DNA from: a virus
Taxonomy: Duplodnaviria > Heunggongvirae > Uroviricota > Caudoviricetes
Strand: one strand, 5' to 3'
DNA: 4,917 nt
IMG/VR virus record: IMGVR_UViG_2671180814_000001
The translations under genes were made by a program, and so were the position numbers. The notes under the pieces are model-generated. The model made no database searches. It saw only the letters and a list, made by a program, of their open reading frames with translations, and was not told where the DNA came from. Shown here one piece after another: positions 1 through 4,917 of the stretch (position 1 is its first letter; every line of letters begins with the position of its first letter).

Positions 1-23
1 AAGGAGTGTCCGTTAAACTCAGG

Positions 24-389
24 CTACCTCATTCTGGCGAGTCGTTTTTTGGAGTGTTCGCGGGCTTTTTCCTCCGTCATCTGAATAATCAGCATATCAG
101 CAGGATCGCAAATCACGTTGTAAATCACCCAGCCGTCAATCAGGCCGATAGTCTTGCCGGTTCGTGCCGGGCCAACAAATATCACTGCGTCGTATTCACG
201 CGAGGCCAGGCAGTTCATCGGCTCAATAACATACGGTGCCACCAGCGGATCCCACGGGACTGAGTTCCCTGCCCCCATGGGCACCCGCATATACTGAGCA
301 ACGGCATCAGCAACCCGCATTCGTCTCGGTGCGCGAAGGATATAACCTGAATCGGTTCGTGCTGCCTTTGCGGTTTCCTGATTCAGCAT
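24..389 (-). CDS. Phage terminase large subunit (lambda gpA-like), N-terminal ATPase fragment; 121 aa, far shorter than the ~640 aa family norm, so probably truncated or a pseudogene
   Basis: ORF with ATG at 387-389 and TAG at 24-26. Walker A-like motif FVGPARTGKT, in a context that loosely parallels the lambda gpA N-terminus as recalled. The start overlaps the stop of the upstream Nu1-like gene (TAATG), matching the lambdoid Nu1-A arrangement. Only 23 nt remain to the window edge, so a frameshifted continuation cannot be assessed. Confidence 0.65.
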   Translation of the reverse strand: MLNQETAKAARTDSGYILRAPRRMRVADAVAQYMRVPMGAGNSVPWDPLVAPYVIEPMNCLASREYDAVIFVGPARTGKTIGLIDGWVIYNVICDPADMLIIQMTEEKAREHSKKRLARMR

Positions 390-883
390 TACTCCTCCTG
401 CTGTAATTCCTCCTCATCATCCGCACCTGCTTCAGTCACCCGCAGGGCTATCTGATCGCGCAGATCATCAATAATGGACTGAACACGGCTCACAGCGGCA
501 GGCTGCAGACCGCAGTCACGTTCAAGAATATCCGGTAATGTCTCCAGCACCTGCACGACCGCTTTTGCCCAGATGGCAAACTCCCGTCTGACATCACTGG
601 CCGGAATGAGTTGTGCCGTTTCCTGTTCGAACTTAAGACGCTCACGTTCAGACTGATACCAGGCTTTGCGCTCATGCGCGTCCATTTCGCCTTCTGCAAC
701 CGGCGGTGGTAATGCCAGAAATGCCGACACAATATCAACCACCCGATAAAGCTTGAGGTTGCTTTCATGCCCCCCTGCAACGGGTAGATTTTGCAGCCTT
801 GCCGCAGCAGTCTGGCGATGTACACCTGACAGTGCCGCCAGTTGACTGATATTCAGCGTCAGATTTTTTAACTCTCGATCCAT
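389..883 (-). CDS. Phage terminase small subunit / DNA packaging protein (lambda Nu1 family)
   Basis: 164-aa ORF. The N-terminal segment LNISQLAALSGVHRQTAAARLQNLPVAGG has the same pattern as the lambda Nu1 helix-turn-helix region (KKQLADIFGASIRTIQNWQEQGMPV), and the C-terminus is acidic. GGAG lies 8 nt upstream of the ATG at 881-883. It sits about 180 bp downstream of the cos-like site and directly upstream of the large terminase, with overlapping stop/start. Confidence 0.8.
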   Translation of the reverse strand: MDRELKNLTLNISQLAALSGVHRQTAAARLQNLPVAGGHESNLKLYRVVDIVSAFLALPPPVAEGEMDAHERKAWYQSERERLKFEQETAQLIPASDVRREFAIWAKAVVQVLETLPDILERDCGLQPAAVSRVQSIIDDLRDQIALRVTEAGADDEEELQQEE

Positions 884-1240: not shown

Positions 1241-1417
1241 ATGAGGGACAAACCCGCGAACCATAAACGCGGTAAAAACCCGGTGTGCATCGTTTTTGAT
1301 TATTCCCGCACACTCGCGCAGAAGGAGTTCCCCGTCGGGCTACGGTCATGGTTAATACGGGAATACGGCGACGATACAGCGCATGATGTGTCAGGCTTGA
1401 ATACCTTTATCCTTTAA
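1241..1417 (+). CDS. Hypothetical small protein (58 aa from ATG 1241; the ORF track starts at GTG 1202), opposite orientation to the late genes
   Basis: AGGA at 1228-1231 sits 9 nt before ATG 1241. A hairpin with a T-run on the plus strand follows about 50 nt downstream (1464-1490). The position between Rz and cos, on the opposite strand, is where lambda carries bor, but the protein is not Bor-like and I do not recognise it. Confidence 0.25.
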   Translation: MRDKPANHKRGKNPVCIVFDYSRTLAQKEFPVGLRSWLIREYGDDTAHDVSGLNTFIL

Positions 1418-1463
1418 AAGGGATATCAGTTAAGTTATCCCGTGTAGGGTATAAGCCATTATC

Positions 1464-1490
1464 AAAGCCACTCTGTAGGAAGTGGCTTTT
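1464..1490 (+). terminator. Candidate intrinsic terminator hairpin (stem AGCCACT/AGTGGCT, 8-nt loop, TTTT tail; A-run on the other side, so possibly bidirectional)
   Basis: 7-bp perfect stem at 1466-1472 and 1481-1487, followed by TTTT at 1487-1490. Confidence 0.4.
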
Positions 1491-1501
1491 GTAATGGCAA
1501 T

Positions 1502-1525
1502 AAAAAGCCCCGCGAATGCGAGGCT
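1502..1525 (-). terminator. Rho-independent terminator for the minus-strand (late) transcript
   Basis: Minus-strand RNA AGCCUCGC-AUUC-GCGGGGCU followed by UUUUU: an 8-bp GC-rich stem with one G-U pair. A near-identical element follows the other Rz copy at 3478-3500. Confidence 0.5.
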
Positions 1526-1558: not shown

Positions 1559-1702
1559 TCAACGCAGCCCCTTACCGCGCGCAAAATGCTCAATATCAAG
1601 CATCAGCAATGAGATGTTTAATCTGGATTCACTCCAGAAGTGAGCACCACCCTGTCTACAGAGCCAGATGTGAAGGATGATGAGTAAAATTATCGCTATC
1701 AT
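1559..1702 (-). CDS. Possible small membrane protein (47 aa, [47 protein letters not shown]), translationally coupled to Rz
   Basis: ATG at 1700-1702 overlaps the Rz stop at 1699-1701 (ATGA). The N-terminal 14 residues are strongly hydrophobic. The ORF ends about 35 nt before the terminator at 1502-1525. It is below the ORF-track length cut-off and was found by manual translation. It is absent from the equivalent position after the second Rz copy. Confidence 0.25.
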
Positions 1703-2166
1703 CGAAGGCATTGCGTCCTGATGTATTCCTGAAGCGTTCTCAGTGCTGTTTGGTCGCGGATAATTCCGTCCCGGATACCGAGAACGTTTCGTCCAGCAAC
1801 TGGAGAGAGTTCGACGGTGGCATCATTGCCCATGCCGGAGGCGCTGGAGGTTTCGGCTGAGGATGGCACAGGGCATTTTCCTTTGACGAGCACCCGACCA
1901 CCATTATCAAGCTTGCGCCGAAGAGCATCATTTTCAGCTTTCGCATCAGCTAACTCCTTCGTGTATTTAGCATCGAGTGCATCAGCATCACGCTGGCGCT
2001 GCTGCATGTCAGTAATGGTTGCGTTCGCCAGCTTCAGTTCTCTTGCGTTTTTGTCGCGCTGCTCTTTGTAGGTAATGGCGTTATCACGGTAATGATTAAC
2101 AGCCCATGACAGGCGGACGATGATGCAGATAACCAGAGCGGAGATAATCGCGGTGACTCTGCTCAT
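1699..2166 (-). CDS. Rz: Rz i-spanin (inner-membrane spanin subunit), lambda type
   Basis: The N-terminus [34 protein letters not shown] (TM helix) followed by a coiled-coil-like region matches lambda/DLP12 Rz as recalled. ATG at 2164-2166 overlaps the upstream endolysin stop (ATGA). A C-terminal Cys is present. Confidence 0.85.
1740..1946 (-). CDS. Rz1: Rz1 o-spanin lipoprotein, embedded in the +1 frame of Rz, lambda type
   Basis: [21 protein letters not shown] has a lipobox (VVGC) and is followed by the proline-rich [16 protein letters not shown]. It resembles lambda Rz1 (MLKLKMML...VVGC...PPPPPAW) and lies entirely inside Rz. Confidence 0.8.
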
Positions 2167-2281
2167 TGCTGCCCCCACAAACAGACTTCACGCTCAATCT
2201 CACGACGGGTCATCAGCCCTTTCCATTGCTTACCGCCAGCATATGTCCAGCGACGTAGCTGGTCACATGCGCCTTTGATAT
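2163..2281 (-). CDS. R: 3' end (last 38 codons) of a second endolysin gene, interrupted upstream by the N gap
   Basis: Translates to [38 protein letters not shown], almost identical to the C-terminus of the complete endolysin at 3987-4484. The reading frame runs directly into the N-run at 2282. Confidence 0.8.
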
Positions 2282-2465
2282 NNNNNNNNNNNNNNNNNNN
2301 NNNNNNNNNNNNNNNNNNNNNNNNNNNNNNNNNNNNNNNNNNNNNNNNNNNNNNNNNNNNNNNNNNNNNNNNNNNNNNNNNNNNNNNNNNNNNNNNNNNN
2401 NNNNNNNNNNNNNNNNNNNNNNNNNNNNNNNNNNNNNNNNNNNNNNNNNNNNNNNNNNNNNNNNN
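2282..2465. other. Assembly/scaffold gap (184 N)
   Basis: Uninterrupted run of N. It begins inside the endolysin reading frame, so real sequence is missing here (at least the 5' part of the endolysin and probably a holin). Confidence 0.95.
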
Positions 2466-2578
2466 GTTATTTCCCCACTTACTGGCTTGGGTTGTTTCGT
2501 GGTACTGCCGTTAACTGGTGGCCCAGAATAAATTCCGGTTTCATTATCAAGCCCACCCGTAAATGGGCTTTGTAATGG

Positions 2579-2836
2579 CTACTTCGCTTTTGCTTCCGCT
2601 CGCTTACGCCGGCGCTCTTCTTTCCTCTCGGCTTTTGCCATGTCCATGAATGCCTGCATGATCGAGTTCCGCATCATGTAGCTAACAAAGTGATGATTGA
2701 CACAGCCGTTGAGGCGCAGCTGCTCGCCAAACTCATCCACCGAGGCCAATGCTTCCATCATGCCCTTCTCGCCTTTCATGAACTCTGAGAAGTCGCGCCC
2801 CGCTCTGGAGGCGCATTCAATAACATGATCACTCAT
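2579..2836 (-). CDS. Hypothetical 85-aa protein with an acidic N-terminal half and a strongly basic/charged C-terminal tail; downstream partner of the KilA-N-like gene
   Basis: ATG at 2834-2836 overlaps the stop of the upstream ORF (ATGA). C-terminal tail AKAERKEERRRKRAEAKAK. A hairpin (AAGCCCA/TGGGCTT, 2549-2570) lies 9 nt past the stop. I do not recognise the family. Confidence 0.5.
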   Translation of the reverse strand: MSDHVIECASRAGRDFSEFMKGEKGMMEALASVDEFGEQLRLNGCVNHHFVSYMMRNSIMQAFMDMAKAERKEERRRKRAEAKAK

Positions 2837-3330
2837 CCCGGAAGCCCGGGGATCGTAATCTGCAGCTGGTTAGCCAGGGAGTTAATCTCAGCGACCAACA
2901 CTGGCTTCGTATAGCGCCATGCTGCCAGCCCTTGTCCGCAGAAGCTCGCCATGTCTTTCTTCTGGTCAAATTCATGACATTTCATGTTGAGCTGCGCACT
3001 TAAGCTGTTGCGATGCTGAAGTTCTCCGGTGAAGTAGTCATCGAGGACTTTATAGGCCGCGTACTTGAACCCGGGGTTTAACCAAGCCGCATAATCGTAA
3101 GCAACAAACTTCCCGCCATATGTTCCACCGTGTACACCGCGCTCAGTAAAAACCACAGATTCGTGGTTTTTCTCCAGCTCGGCTAAGAACTCTTTGGTCT
3201 GCTTGTTTCGCAGGTAGTGGTAAGGCGATTCAGATTCACTTTTACCACTGGCTTTCCACATATCAGTGAGGCAGATCATGCCATCTTCACCGATACGAAT
3301 TGGTTGATTGAAGAGGGTTAATGATTTCAT
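2833..3330 (-). CDS. KilA-N-domain-like protein (165 aa), function unknown
   Basis: The N-terminal ~110 aa fit the KilA-N pattern as I recall it: LFNQPIRIGEDGMICLTDMWKASGK ... EFLAEL ... GGTYGGKFVAYDYAAWLNPGFKYAAYKVL. The C-terminal ~55 aa are unassigned. ATG at 3328-3330; a weak GAG/AGG SD lies upstream. Preceded by the tandem terminators that follow the complete lysis cassette. Confidence 0.6.
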   Translation of the reverse strand: MKSLTLFNQPIRIGEDGMICLTDMWKASGKSESESPYHYLRNKQTKEFLAELEKNHESVVFTERGVHGGTYGGKFVAYDYAAWLNPGFKYAAYKVLDDYFTGELQHRNSLSAQLNMKCHEFDQKKDMASFCGQGLAAWRYTKPVLVAEINSLANQLQITIPGLPG

Positions 3331-3445
3331 AGCGTGTACCTACTCTTTGAAATGAACCTTTGCCGCACAGGAAACCAGCCCACCGAGGCTCGCCAGCACT
3401 AACTGGTATCCTCAAAGGCCCATTCCAAAGGGGCAGGTTCGGTGT

Positions 3446-3470
3446 AAAAAACATGCGTTGCGGTACGCAT
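3446..3470 (-). terminator. Candidate intrinsic terminator (stem ATGCGT/ACGCAT, 6-nt loop, U6 tail on the minus strand)
   Basis: Perfect 6-bp inverted repeat at 3453-3458 and 3465-3470. On the plus strand it is preceded by AAAAAA at 3446-3451, which is the U-run on the minus-strand RNA. Confidence 0.4.
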
Positions 3471-3477
3471 TTATTGC

Positions 3478-3500
3478 AAAAAGCCCCGCATCGCGAGGCT
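3478..3500 (-). terminator. Rho-independent terminator directly downstream of Rz (same module as 1502-1525)
   Basis: Minus-strand RNA AGCCUCGC-GAU-GCGGGGCU followed by UUUUU. It lies about 30 nt after the Rz stop and is near-identical in sequence to the element at 1502-1525. Confidence 0.5.
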
Positions 3501-3531
3501 CATTAAATGGACTTTGTGATTTGCAAAAAAA

Positions 3532-3990
3532 TTATTTCAGGCATTGCGTCCTGATGTATTCCTGCAGGTAGTTAACCTGCGCGGTTATCTTGTCGATTCC
3601 ACTTCGGAGACGGTAATAATTGAGTTCAGCATCTGCTGTAAGTCCTGGGCTTTCTCCATCGCCCATGCCGCTGGCTCCGGTCGTTGACTTTGCACAGGTG
3701 GCGGCGACTTGCAGGCGCTTACGCCCAGCAGAAACATCAGCACGGAGACTTTCGATAGTCGCGTTAGCATCAGCAAGCTCCTTTATGTATCTTGCGTCGA
3801 GTTCTGCTACATCACGTTGACGCTTCCGCATGTCAGCGATGGTGGCGTTCGCCTTCTCCAGTTCACTGGCCTTGTTATCGCGCTGCTCTTTGTAGGCGAT
3901 TGCGTTATCACGGTAATGATTAACAGCCAATGACAGGCAGACGATGATGCAGATAACCAGAGCGGAGATAATCGCGGTTACTCTGCTCAT
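3532..3990 (-). CDS. Rz: Rz i-spanin (second variant; C-terminal half diverged from the copy at 1699-2166)
   Basis: [35 protein letters not shown]-terminal TM helix followed by a charged coiled-coil-like region. GGGGGA SD before ATG 3988-3990. The ATG overlaps the endolysin stop (ATGA). Rz1 is embedded. Confidence 0.85.
3585..3770 (-). CDS. Rz1: Rz1 o-spanin lipoprotein, embedded in the +1 frame of Rz (second variant)
   Basis: From ATG 3768-3770: [20 protein letters not shown] (signal peptide with lipobox Cys) followed by the proline-rich [16 protein letters not shown]. Entirely inside Rz. Confidence 0.75.
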
Positions 3991-4484
3991 TGTTTCCCCC
4001 ACAAACAGACTTCACGCTCAATCTCACGGCGAGTCATCAGTCCTTTCCATTGATTACCGCCAGCGTATGTCCAGCGCCGTAGCTGATCACATGCGCCTTT
4101 AATATCACCCTGGTTTATTTTGCGAAGAAGCGTCGATGTTCTGAAATTGCCAGCGCCCACGTTGTAAACGAACGAGTAAAGAGCGCCGCGCGTTGTTTCC
4201 GGTATATCGACTTTGATGTACGGGTTAATTTGTCTGGCGACAGTGGCAAGGTCTTTATTCAGGAGAGCTTTGCACTCTGCTTCGGTATACGTTTTACCGG
4301 GAATGATGTCTTTTCCTGTATGCCCGTAACATACAGTCCATACACCAACTATGTCTTTGTAAGGATTATGTCTCACACCTTCCAGACCATCGTTACCACC
4401 TGGGCCAGTGATTAACACAGATGCTATAGCAATAGCCCCGCCACCAATAGCAGCAGCAACAGCTTTTCGTAATGATGGAGGCAT
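3987..4484 (-). CDS. R: SAR endolysin (phage-21 R / DLP12 RrrD-type lysozyme with an N-terminal signal-anchor-release domain)
   Basis: 165 aa. [28 protein letters not shown] is a Gly/Ala-rich weakly hydrophobic SAR segment. It is followed by a T4-lysozyme-like catalytic region (LEGV...YKD...VWT). Near-identical to the phage 21 R protein as recalled. The start overlaps the holin stop (TAATG). Confidence 0.9.
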
Positions 4485-4699
4485 TATCCACCTCTCGCAG
4501 CCTTGCGCTTATCTTCTTTAATCTTGAAATAAAGGTTTGTCAGGTACGTCAGCAGGCCAAATACCAGGCTACCCAGCACTCCAATTGCCGCCCACTGTGA
4601 GGGCGTGACTTTATCTAGCAGCTGTAAAAACCAGTACCCGGCACTACCTGCTGAGGTGCCATAGGCGACACCCGTTGTTAACTTATCCATGGATTTCAT
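4484..4699 (-). CDS. S: Pinholin, S21 family (class II holin, 71 aa) with a dual-start motif
   Basis: [71 protein letters not shown]: two TM segments and a charged C-terminus. Met1-Lys-Ser-Met4 is the antiholin/holin dual start. A strong SD (GAGGTGGGG) precedes the ATG. Near-identical to phage 21 S / EssD as recalled. Confidence 0.9.
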
Positions 4700-4874: not shown

Positions 4875-4903
4875 AGCATAACCAATTTTGGTGATGCTGC
4901 CAA
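4875..4903 (-). promoter_or_regulatory. Candidate sigma70 late promoter (pR'-like)
   Basis: On the minus strand: TTGGCA (-35, 4898-4903), a 17-nt spacer, and TATGCT (-10, 4875-4880). The predicted start is about 55 nt upstream of the terminator T-run. The Q gene would lie beyond the right edge of the window. Confidence 0.35.
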
Positions 4904-4917
4904 CTTACTGATTTAGT

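What the first reader, a model, noticed from the sequence alone, without database searches (positions are those of the whole stretch)
1699..4699. Two lysis modules in tandem: one complete, one partial, mosaically related
Seen in the sequence: a complete pinholin, SAR endolysin and Rz/Rz1 set at 3532-4699, and a second endolysin 3' end plus Rz/Rz1 at 1699-2281. The endolysin 3' ends and Rz 5' ends are about 90% identical at nucleotide level (compare 2040-2281 with 3870-4100). The Rz C-terminal halves and the Rz1 genes are clearly different (lambda-like Rz1 in the left copy, a different Rz1 in the right copy). Inference: this is either a genuine tandem or recombinant arrangement between two lambdoid prophages, or a mis-join of two prophage copies across the N gap. 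If real, the roughly 240-bp near-identical segments are substrates for homologous recombination that could delete or invert the intervening cassette.
Basis: partly seen in the sequence, partly recalled or inferred. Interest (0 to 1): 0.6.

Follow-up and report, generated by a model that had tools for sequence, protein, structure and literature searches.

The report
Scaffold mis-join of two prophage remnants
The "tandem" pair of phage lysis gene sets is almost certainly an assembly artefact: two short contigs from two different decayed prophages of Shigella sonnei, about 0.7 Mb apart in every finished genome, were joined across a run of N, and both gene sets are ordinary.

Summary
The sequence features are real. 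There is a complete phage-21/DLP12-type lysis cassette at 3532-4699. It has a pinholin, a SAR endolysin and Rz with embedded Rz1. A second Rz/Rz1 plus 119 nt of endolysin 3' end lies at 1699-2281. The shared stretch is 87% identical over 345 nt.

The adjacency exists only across 184 N. The window is the whole 4,917-bp record CXAM01000202.1, a short-read draft whose contigs match Shigella sonnei at 99.8-99.96%.

Each contig matches a different IS-riddled lambdoid prophage remnant. The two loci lie 0.71-0.75 Mb apart in three closed S. sonnei chromosomes, including the closest relative found, CP180280.1. In closed genomes the "partial" left module is complete, with a full endolysin and holin.

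No tandem was found in 5,426 complete E. coli genomes or 50,697 phage records. The junction pattern is absent from the viral, metagenome and genome collections.

Sister drafts continue the right contig into 183 nt of native sequence. The N run replaces exactly that stretch. Both contigs also carry alleles of the other locus where the two loci are nearly identical, which gives a plausible cause for a false link.

Verdict: not a real feature. The cassettes and their mosaic relationship are already known. Interest is low.

The parts
1..31 (.). Terminal 31 nt of an IS600 copy; left end of the scaffold
   Evidence: 100% match to the ends of IS copies next to IS3-family transposase genes in all S. 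sonnei loci. The element is annotated 'IS3-like element IS600 family transposase' in closed E. coli genomes.
24..389 (-). Truncated large terminase gene (121 aa, gpA ATPase N-terminus), cut by IS600; locus A
   Evidence: PF05876, E 4.5e-22. The same 121-aa product followed by IS600 is found in closed S. sonnei genomes.
389..883 (-). DUF1441 small-terminase-position gene; locus A
   Evidence: PF07278, E 2.7e-41. It sits directly upstream of the large terminase gene in L002 and L019.
1276..1499 (.). 'seg': non-coding module shared by both prophage types. Positions 1371-1478 are identical in loci A and B except site 1413.
   Evidence: 97% match to L001 5594-5817 and to S. sonnei locus B next to IS2. 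Window 1413 = T is the locus-B allele, while all seven A loci compared base by base have G.
1559..1711 (-). 50-aa ORF overlapping the Rz-A stop, annotated as hypothetical
   Evidence: Called in closed genomes. Function not examined.
1699..2166 (-). Rz-A (i-spanin) of locus A
   Evidence: PF03245, E 2.8e-30, with an N-terminal hydrophobic segment. The exact protein is at the A locus of 53G, CP032523.1 and CP180280.1.
1740..1946 (-). Rz1-A (o-spanin lipoprotein), embedded in Rz-A in the +1 frame
   Evidence: PF06085, E 3.8e-21. Lipobox VVGC read directly from the sequence; frame offset 1.
2163..2281 (-). Last 38 codons of the locus-A SAR endolysin, cut by the contig end
   Evidence: Translation IKGACDQ...CLWGQQ*. 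Closed genomes continue into a full 165-aa endolysin plus holin.
2282..2465 (.). Scaffold gap of 184 N. It occupies the place of 183 nt of native locus-B sequence.
   Evidence: N run. In sister draft L034 the right contig is 1-2452 and seg' starts at 2636. In the source record the N run is 2453-2636.
2579..2836 (-). 85-aa hypothetical gene; locus B moron
   Evidence: No Pfam hit. It always follows the KilA-N gene in closed genomes.
2833..3330 (-). KilA-N / ORF11CD3 domain gene; locus B moron
   Evidence: PF04383, E 1.3e-15, and PF10549, E 2.4e-13.
3532..3990 (-). Rz-B (i-spanin) of locus B
   Evidence: PF03245, E 1.9e-38.
3585..3770 (-). Rz1-B (o-spanin lipoprotein), embedded in the +1 frame
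   Evidence: PF06085, E 2.2e-20. Lipobox VSAC read directly from the sequence.
3987..4484 (-). RrrD / R21-type SAR endolysin of locus B
   Evidence: PF00959. PDB 4ZPU and 3HDE match over the full length. E35/D44/T50 are present, and residues 8-27 are Gly/Ala-rich and hydrophobic.
4484..4699 (-). EssD / S21-type holin (pinholin family) with an M1/M4 dual start
   Evidence: PF04971, E 2e-35. The MKSM start is read directly from the sequence.
4890..4917 (.). Terminal 28 nt of IS1; right end of the scaffold
   Evidence: The right contig aligns without a break into an IS1 copy (InsA / DDE_Tnp_IS1 genes) upstream of essD in closed S. sonnei genomes.
1937..2281 (.). Left copy of the shared endolysin-3' / Rz-5' stretch
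   Evidence: 87.0% identity over 345 nt to 3761-4105. The longest exact run is 39 nt.
3761..4105 (.). Right copy of the shared stretch

Best explanation
The window is the complete 4,917-bp record CXAM01000202.1 from a short-read draft assembly (GCA_001261375.1). Its sequence is 99.8-99.96% identical to Shigella sonnei chromosomes. It is made of two contigs that a scaffolder joined with 184 N.

The left contig (1-2281) comes from 'locus A', a defective lambdoid prophage with the layout IS600 | essD - rrrD - Rz/Rz1 - 50-aa ORF - seg - DUF1441 gene - truncated terL | IS600. The right contig (2466-4917) comes from 'locus B', a DLP12-like prophage. Its layout is quuD - nmpC-like porin - IS1 | essD - rrrD - Rz/Rz1 - KilA-N - 85-aa gene - 183 nt - seg' - IS2 - DUF1398 - nohD - terL.

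In finished S. sonnei chromosomes the two loci are 0.71-0.75 Mb apart on the same strand. Each has its own complete lysis cassette. So the tandem does not exist, and the 'partial' module is a contig that stops inside a gene.

The false link was most likely created (inferred) because the two prophages share short near-identical stretches. One is the 108-nt 'seg' stretch that lies 204 nt beyond the right contig in the real genome. The other is an endolysin stretch that begins exactly where the left contig stops.

Each cassette is a canonical phage-21-type lysis system. The S21-type pinholin depolarises the inner membrane. That releases and activates the membrane-tethered SAR endolysin, which degrades the murein. 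The Rz/Rz1 spanin then disrupts the outer membrane. This mechanism comes from established knowledge of the families and was not tested here. In S. sonnei both cassettes are separated from their Q-dependent late region by IS elements, so they are probably silent remnants (inferred).
For: 1. Source identified. L029 (CXAM01000202.1, 4,917 bp) is exactly the reverse complement of the window.

2. Left contig. It is 99.96% identical (1 mismatch in 2,281 nt) to locus A of S. sonnei 53G and six other S. sonnei records compared base by base. There the exact Rz-A protein is preceded by a full 165-aa endolysin and a 71-aa holin.

3. Right contig. It is 99.8-99.9% identical over all 2,452 nt, including the IS1 end, to locus B of closed S. 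sonnei genomes. Downstream of the 85-aa gene these always have 183 nt, seg', IS2 (or a remnant of it), DUF1398 and nohD.

4. Positions in the same chromosome.
- 53G (HE616528.1): A at 1.93-1.95 Mb, B at 2.66-2.67 Mb.
- CP032523.1: A at 4.14-4.15 Mb, B at 4.85-4.86 Mb.
- CP180280.1 (lineage 1, same RrrD protein as the window): B at 1.28-1.30 Mb, A at 2.03-2.05 Mb.
The orientation is the same in all three. Strain identities come from PMC5447701 and PMC12511311.

5. No tandem elsewhere. None of 5,426 complete E. coli genomes has one place covering at least 80% of the window (best 66%). None of 50,697 phage records does either. The junction pattern with 170-200 nt spacing gave 0 hits in viral and metagenome contigs, and with 180-190 nt spacing gave 0 hits in genome contigs.

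6. Sister drafts. Drafts with accessions of the same CX..01 pattern (L033, L034) and another draft (L030) carry the right contig straight on into 183 nt + seg' + the IS2 end, with no N. L031 has a gap at the same spot and then seg'. The N run of the source (2453-2636 in record orientation) ends one base past the start of seg' (2636 in L034).

7. Cross-locus alleles. The only mismatch of the left contig to locus A (1413 T) is the locus-B allele, inside the shared 108-nt stretch. Sites 4155, 4167 and 4266 of the right contig carry locus-A alleles that the closest closed B locus lacks. Sister drafts show different A/B mixtures at these sites.

8. Gap size. A 184-nt gap cannot hold the missing 379 nt of endolysin plus the 216-nt holin gene.

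9. Scaffold ends. Both outer ends are IS termini (IS600 and IS1), which is typical where short-read contigs break.
Against: - I could not see the reads, so I cannot show which read pairs produced the link.
- A plain paired-end gap estimate from links through 'seg' would be negative, not +184. I could not reconstruct the algorithmic origin of the N-run length.
- Why the right contig stops at 2466 instead of running 183-204 nt further, as sister drafts do, is unexplained.
- One of the four 'A-type' sites (4187 C) is genuine in a closed lineage-1 genome. Some of the allele mixing could therefore be real gene conversion rather than assembly noise.
- S. sonnei genomes do rearrange through IS elements, so a strain-specific rearrangement is not formally excluded.
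Confidence: 0.93

Rival explanations
1. Genuine strain-specific tandem. In this isolate a 782-nt piece of locus A (50-aa ORF, Rz/Rz1-A, last 119 nt of the endolysin) has been copied or translocated next to locus B. One edge would have formed by homology at 'seg' and the other by an illegitimate junction hidden in the gap. The result would be a complete module followed by a truly partial one.
For: The scaffolder did link the contigs in a consistent orientation. If 1500-2281 is removed, the window becomes collinear with native locus B: seg - 183/184 nt - right contig. Exchange of sequence between the two loci is plausible, because site 4187 of a closed lineage-1 B locus carries the A allele.
Against: - No closed S. 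sonnei or E. coli genome, phage record or searched contig collection has this arrangement.
- It needs an illegitimate junction that happens to fall exactly in the unsequenced 184 nt.
- The left contig continues leftwards into locus-A terminase genes and IS600, not into locus-B IS2/DUF1398. A true insertion at locus B should have produced a branch at 1371.
- Sister drafts show native sequence in the gap.
Confidence: 0.03
2. Real recombinant prophage. Recombination at the shared 'seg' stretch has truly joined the locus-B lysis/KilA-N region to the locus-A packaging genes (terS - seg - 183 nt - 85-aa gene ...). Only the 782-nt Rz-A stretch (1500-2281) would then be wrongly threaded into the scaffold from a second, intact copy of locus A.
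For: The N-run length equals the native distance from seg' to the right contig to within one base. The seg copy in the left contig carries the B allele at 1413, as a crossover inside seg would give.
Against: - The two loci are direct repeats 0.7 Mb apart. A simple crossover would delete 0.7 Mb of chromosome or require a large duplication.
- No closed genome shows a terS(DUF1441) - seg - 183 nt - KilA-N arrangement. It would have covered about 79% of the query, whereas the best place covers 66%.
- The 1413 allele is equally explained by merging of reads from both loci.
Confidence: 0.03

Closest known systems
Phage 21 lysis cassette (S21 pinholin, R21 SAR endolysin, Rz/Rz1) and its cryptic E. 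coli counterpart, DLP12 essD-rrrD-rzpD/rzoD
   Same: Same gene order and overlaps. PF04971 holin with an MKSM dual start. The 165-aa endolysin matches PDB 4ZPU (RrrD) and 3HDE over its full length (E about 1e-104) and has E35/D44/T50 and a Gly/Ala-rich N-terminal SAR segment. Rz carries an embedded +1-frame Rz1 lipoprotein. Closed E. coli genomes annotate the genes as essD, rrrD and 'lysis protein'.
   Different: Nothing of substance. In S. sonnei both copies are cut off from the upstream late region by IS1 or IS600. The two Rz/Rz1 pairs are divergent alleles.
Lysis-to-packaging region of lambdoid and Stx phages that carry a KilA-N moron (e.g. phages 2851, 1717, JLK-2012, PhiR49_1)
   Same: S - R - Rz/Rz1 - KilA-N/ORF11CD3 - small hypothetical gene - 'seg' module, at 92-96% nucleotide identity to the right contig plus seg.
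   Different: Those phages have one cassette each. S. sonnei locus B additionally has IS1 and IS2 insertions and a 259-nt insert downstream of the 85-aa gene.
Repeat-induced scaffolding errors in short-read drafts of IS-rich and prophage-rich genomes
   Same: Two contigs end at or near repeats, an N run lies between them, and the outer ends are IS termini. The contigs map 0.7 Mb apart in finished genomes. Alleles of the other copy appear inside the shared stretches. A comparable draft scaffold is L027, with a single N flanked by a 389-nt exact duplication.
   Different: The positive 184-N gap length is not what simple paired-end arithmetic predicts. The software step responsible is not known.

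Membership tests
Tandem (physically adjacent) duplicated lysis modules | Continuous sequence joining the two modules | tested here: not met
   Only 184 N lie between 2281 and 2466.
Tandem (physically adjacent) duplicated lysis modules | The same adjacency in finished genomes of the same or related strains | tested here: not met
   The loci are 0.71-0.75 Mb apart in 53G, CP032523.1 and CP180280.1. There are 0 of 5,426 complete E. coli genomes and 0 of 50,697 phage records with both contigs in one place.
Tandem (physically adjacent) duplicated lysis modules | The left module is truly truncated (no holin, no endolysin 5' part) | tested here: not met
   Every context read that carries the exact Rz-A protein (8 complete chromosomes and 2 drafts shown, 24 contigs read) has a full endolysin directly upstream. 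All but the scaffold L027 also have the holin abutting it.
S21-type pinholin (PF04971, 'Bacteriophage P21 holin S') | Full-length match to the family profile above the curated cut-off | tested here: met
   E 2e-35, 121 bits against a cut-off of 26, residues 5-67 of 71.
S21-type pinholin (PF04971, 'Bacteriophage P21 holin S') | Dual-start motif (Met1...Met4) and two transmembrane segments, the first weakly hydrophobic | tested here: inconclusive
   The MKSMDK start is present. The hydropathy scan finds a strong segment at 33-58 only. The first segment ([16 protein letters not shown]) falls below the threshold, as expected for a SAR-like TMD1, but this does not demonstrate it.
S21-type pinholin (PF04971, 'Bacteriophage P21 holin S') | Forms small (about 2 nm) heptameric holes that depolarise the membrane without releasing endolysin | not testable with these tools
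   This is a biochemical property. It is inferred from family membership only.
SAR endolysin (R21 / RrrD, GH24 lysozyme) | GH24 lysozyme domain with the catalytic Glu-Asp-Thr triad | tested here: met
   PF00959, E 8e-48. E35, D44 and T50 are present. Full-length match to 4ZPU and 3HDE.
SAR endolysin (R21 / RrrD, GH24 lysozyme) | N-terminal weakly hydrophobic, Gly/Ala-rich signal-anchor-release segment instead of a cleavable signal peptide | tested here: met
   Residues 5-31 are hydrophobic, and residues 8-27 are 55% Gly+Ala. The N-terminus is collinear with the solved R21/RrrD chains.
Two-component embedded spanin (Rz / Rz1) | i-spanin with an N-terminal TMD and the PF03245 domain | tested here: met
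   Both copies hit PF03245 (E 1.9e-38 and 2.8e-30). TMDs lie at residues 1-27 and 1-26.
Two-component embedded spanin (Rz / Rz1) | o-spanin lipoprotein gene wholly embedded in Rz in the +1 frame, with a lipobox Cys | tested here: met
   Both copies hit PF06085 (E 2e-20 and 4e-21). The frame offset is 1. The lipoboxes are VVGC and VSAC.

The most novel reading that the evidence does not exclude
In this one S. sonnei isolate, a 782-nt fragment of the locus-A lysis region (Rz/Rz1-A plus the endolysin 3' end) has really been copied next to the locus-B cassette. This would have occurred through recombination primed at the shared 'seg' stretch and an illegitimate second junction. It would give a true complete-plus-partial tandem flanked by direct repeats.
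Probability: 0.03. Interest if true: 0.25.

Novelty: not a real feature. Interest (0 to 1): 0.05.

Why it matters
Scientifically it matters little. Both cassettes are textbook phage-21/DLP12 lysis modules. Mosaic Rz/Rz1 alleles among lambdoid prophages are well known.

The practical value is as a caution. N-joined scaffolds in short-read drafts of IS-rich and prophage-rich genomes such as Shigella can create apparent gene duplications, 'partial' genes and recombination substrates that do not exist. Consensus sequence inside near-identical prophage stretches can also be a site-by-site mixture of two loci.

If the tandem were real, it would be a minor strain-specific rearrangement in a silent prophage remnant.

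Tried and rejected
1. Searching for the source with the gap pattern in genome contigs gave 0 hits. A plain 37-mer found only two mis-binned MAG contigs. The source was finally found through the exact RrrD protein.

2. I first read the four right-contig mismatches (4155, 4167, 4187, 4266) as pure repeat collapse. That was rejected in part. 4187 C is present in the closed lineage-1 B locus. Also, 4266 (A allele) and 4275 (B allele) are only 9 nt apart, which a simple de Bruijn bubble would not produce. The variable patterns in sister drafts still point to mixing at the other three sites.

3. I tested whether 2466 is a mosaic or repeat boundary that would explain the contig end. It is not. L007 and the sister drafts run straight through it.

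4. I tested whether 2281 is a repeat boundary with a third lysis cassette. L027 breaks 13 nt away, which is suggestive. Most drafts carrying the exact Rz-A protein have a longest contig of only 2-5 kb (58 of 96 blocks), but I did not check whether those contigs pass this point. This is unresolved.

5. I considered reference-guided scaffolding as the origin of '184 = 6555 - 6371' in 53G locus coordinates. It is attractive numerically but unprovable. The usual references also contain locus A, where the left contig should have been placed.

6. Homologous recombination between the two cassettes cannot by itself yield a tandem. It would yield a single hybrid cassette or a 0.7-Mb deletion or duplication.

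Full report
WHAT IS IN THE WINDOW

The 4,917-nt window has one N run, 2282-2465 (184 N), so it is two contigs. All genes are on the minus strand.

The right contig carries these genes:
- a 71-aa holin at 4484-4699 (PF04971 'phage P21 holin S', E 2e-35);
- a 165-aa endolysin at 3987-4484 (PF00959);
- Rz at 3532-3990 (PF03245) with an embedded +1-frame Rz1 at 3585-3770 (PF06085);
- a KilA-N/ORF11CD3 gene at 2833-3330;
- an 85-aa gene with no family at 2579-2836.

The endolysin matches PDB 4ZPU 'RrrD' and 3HDE over its full length at E about 1e-104. It has E35/D44/T50 and a Gly/Ala-rich hydrophobic N-terminus.

The left contig carries these genes:
- the last 38 codons of a second endolysin at 2163-2281;
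- Rz at 1699-2166 with embedded Rz1 at 1740-1946;
- a 50-aa ORF;
- a DUF1441 gene at 389-883;
- the first 121 codons of a gpA-type large terminase at 24-389.

THE REPEAT

1937-2281 aligns without gaps to 3761-4105 at 87.0% over 345 nt (E 1e-111). Identity is 90-95% across 2057-2281 (endolysin 3' end plus Rz 5' end) and 72-78% across 1937-2056. The longest exact run is 39 nt.

The middle of Rz, and with it Rz1, is only 52-62% identical. The last 26 nt of Rz are again identical (1706-1731 = 3539-3564). Both Rz1 products are PF06085 lipoproteins. The left one aligns end to end with lambda Rz1 at 47%, and the right one over 40 residues at 45%.

The copies are direct repeats, so recombination between them could delete but not invert.

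WHERE EACH CONTIG BELONGS

In closed E. coli genomes each contig alone finds full-length matches at about 98%, but to two different prophage types.
- The left contig matches essD - rrrD - Rz - 50-aa ORF - DUF1441 - terL - portal - ClpP/capsid fusion.
- The right contig matches a DLP12-like prophage: quuD - porin - essD - rrrD - Rz - KilA-N - small gene | DUF1398, YlcI | nohD - lambda-type terL.

No record among 5,426 complete E. coli genomes has both contigs in one place (best coverage 66%). Nor does any of 50,697 phage records.

Exact-protein look-ups then led to Shigella sonnei. The right contig is 99.8-99.9% identical over all 2,452 nt to 'locus B' of closed S. sonnei chromosomes, including 28 nt of an IS1 copy at its outer end. 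The left contig has 1 mismatch in 2,281 nt to 'locus A', including 31 nt of an IS600 copy at its outer end.

At locus A the exact Rz-A protein is always preceded by a full 165-aa endolysin, and by a 71-aa holin in all contexts but the scaffold L027. The 'partial' module is therefore a contig that stops inside a gene.

THE TWO LOCI ARE FAR APART

| Chromosome | Locus A | Locus B |
|---|---|---|
| 53G (HE616528.1; identity from PMC5447701) | 1.93-1.95 Mb | 2.66-2.67 Mb |
| CP032523.1 | 4.14-4.15 Mb | 4.85-4.86 Mb |
| CP180280.1 | 2.03-2.05 Mb | 1.28-1.30 Mb |

The loci are on the same strand in all three genomes and 0.71-0.75 Mb apart. CP180280.1 is S. sonnei 201809330, lineage 1 (PMC12511311). 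It is the only closed genome found that encodes the window's exact RrrD protein.

THE SOURCE RECORD AND ITS SISTERS

The look-up of the window's RrrD protein returned L029. This is CXAM01000202.1, 4,917 bp, assembly GCA_001261375.1, and it is exactly the reverse complement of the window. The window is therefore a whole small scaffold of a short-read draft.

Drafts with accessions of the same CX..01 pattern (L033, L034) and another draft (L030) carry the right contig on through 183 nt of native sequence, then a 129-nt stretch ('seg''), then the end of IS2. They do so without any N. L031 has a 392-N gap at this spot and then seg'.

In L034 the right contig is 1-2452 and seg' starts at 2636. In the source record the N run is 2453-2636. 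The N run therefore stands in for the native 183 nt, plus one base.

A search for the two gap-flanking 21-mers found nothing. The spacing allowed was 170-200 nt in viral and metagenome contigs and 180-190 nt in genome contigs.

WHY THE CONTIGS WERE PROBABLY LINKED (INFERENCE)

The left contig contains 'seg' (1276-1499), a non-coding module present in both prophage types. In S. sonnei, positions 1371-1478 are identical in loci A and B except at site 1413. At locus B this stretch lies 204 nt beyond the end of the right contig.

The single mismatch of the left contig to the seven A loci compared base by base is 1413 T, which is the locus-B allele.

Conversely, the endolysin stretch 4108-4274 differs between A and B at only four sites. 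It begins right where the left contig stops (2281 corresponds to 4105). At all four sites the window's right contig has the A allele.

One of these, 4187 C, is genuine in the closed lineage-1 B locus. The other three are not, and sister drafts show different A/B mixtures at these sites.

Both contigs therefore contain sequence contributed by the other locus in exactly the two places where the loci are nearly identical. Read pairs falling in these stretches would link the contigs in the observed relative orientation.

I could not reconstruct how the positive gap of 184 was computed. I also could not establish why the right contig stops at 2466. These points remain open.

MECHANISM OF THE REAL OBJECTS

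Each locus carries a canonical phage-21/DLP12-type lysis cassette. From established knowledge of these families, the S21-type pinholin (dual start M1/M4) triggers and depolarises the inner membrane. This releases the SAR endolysin from the membrane into an active periplasmic form. The Rz/Rz1 spanin complex then disrupts the outer membrane.

The family memberships are shown by profile and structure-sequence matches. The activities themselves were not and cannot be tested here.

In S. sonnei an IS1 copy lies about 190 nt upstream of essD at locus B. An IS600 copy lies about 115 nt upstream of essD at locus A, and terL is cut by IS600. Both are therefore decayed prophage remnants and probably transcriptionally orphaned (inference).

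VERDICT

The sequence observations are right. The adjacency and the 'partial' status are artefacts of scaffolding. I give a real strain-specific arrangement, in either of the two forms listed as rivals, about 6% together. Reads or PCR on the isolate would settle it.

Novelty: not a real feature. The underlying cassettes and their mosaicism are already known. Interest: 0.05.

Noticed in passing
window 1-31 and 4890-4917: Both outer ends of the window are IS termini: IS600 on the left and IS1 on the right. The whole record is bounded by repeat-induced contig breaks, and the terL gene at 24-389 is truncated by IS600.
   Followed up: yes
window 1276-1499 (esp. 1371-1478, site 1413): A non-coding 'seg' module is shared by the two prophage types and by many Stx and lambdoid phages, between the lysis and packaging genes. 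In S. sonnei locus B it is split by IS2 with a 5-nt overlap (1371-1375). The window carries the locus-B allele T at 1413 inside an otherwise locus-A contig.
   Followed up: partly
window 4155, 4167, 4187, 4266 (vs 4275): The right-hand endolysin carries locus-A alleles at the only four A/B-differing sites of 4108-4274. 4187 C is real in the closed lineage-1 genome CP180280.1, which suggests an old gene-conversion or mutation event. The other three vary among short-read drafts, as if reads of both loci were mixed.
   Followed up: partly
window 2282-2514 (+ strand); L009 6262-6450: The N run hides most of a 62-aa ORF called on the opposite strand in closed S. sonnei genomes. Only its last 16 codons (ending at 2514) are visible. 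It lies in a 259-nt insert that some DLP12-like prophages (L001, L004, L006) have and others (L003, L005) lack.
   Followed up: partly
L027 (FUFX01000123.1) 6567-7873: Another draft scaffold with a single N at 6956. It is flanked by an exact 389-nt duplication of essD-end/rrrD-5' on either side of an IS2 end. This is either an IS2 insertion in essD combined with a mis-join, or two cassette copies. It again mimics 'tandem partial lysis modules'.
   Followed up: partly
L031 2309-2700; L032 1862-1927: Sister draft assemblies with the same CX..01 accession pattern have N runs in the same neighbourhood, downstream of the 85-aa gene and inside KilA-N. This region seems systematically hard to assemble in those data.
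   Followed up: no
L006 (JARKOR010000234.1) and L007 (JAEWTL010000129.1): Contigs filed under a Candidatus Nanosynbacter MAG and a Bacillota MAG carry this Escherichia/Shigella prophage lysis region at 96-99% identity. This is most likely mis-binned or contaminating contigs.
   Followed up: no
window 1559-1711 (-) and terminator-like hairpins at 1506-1525 (-) and 3453-3470 (-): A 50-aa ORF overlaps the Rz-A stop codon and is annotated as hypothetical in closed genomes. GC-rich hairpins followed by T runs lie downstream of each Rz, which is consistent with the end of the lysis transcription unit. The total of such sites is not above the shuffled expectation (7 found vs 4.3 +/- 2.0).
   Followed up: no
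window 1706-1731 = 3539-3564: A 26-nt exact match encodes the identical Rz C-terminus ([10 protein letters not shown]) although the rest of the C-terminal halves are strongly diverged. Draft contig L017 starts just outside this match, at the position equal to window 3530.
   Followed up: no
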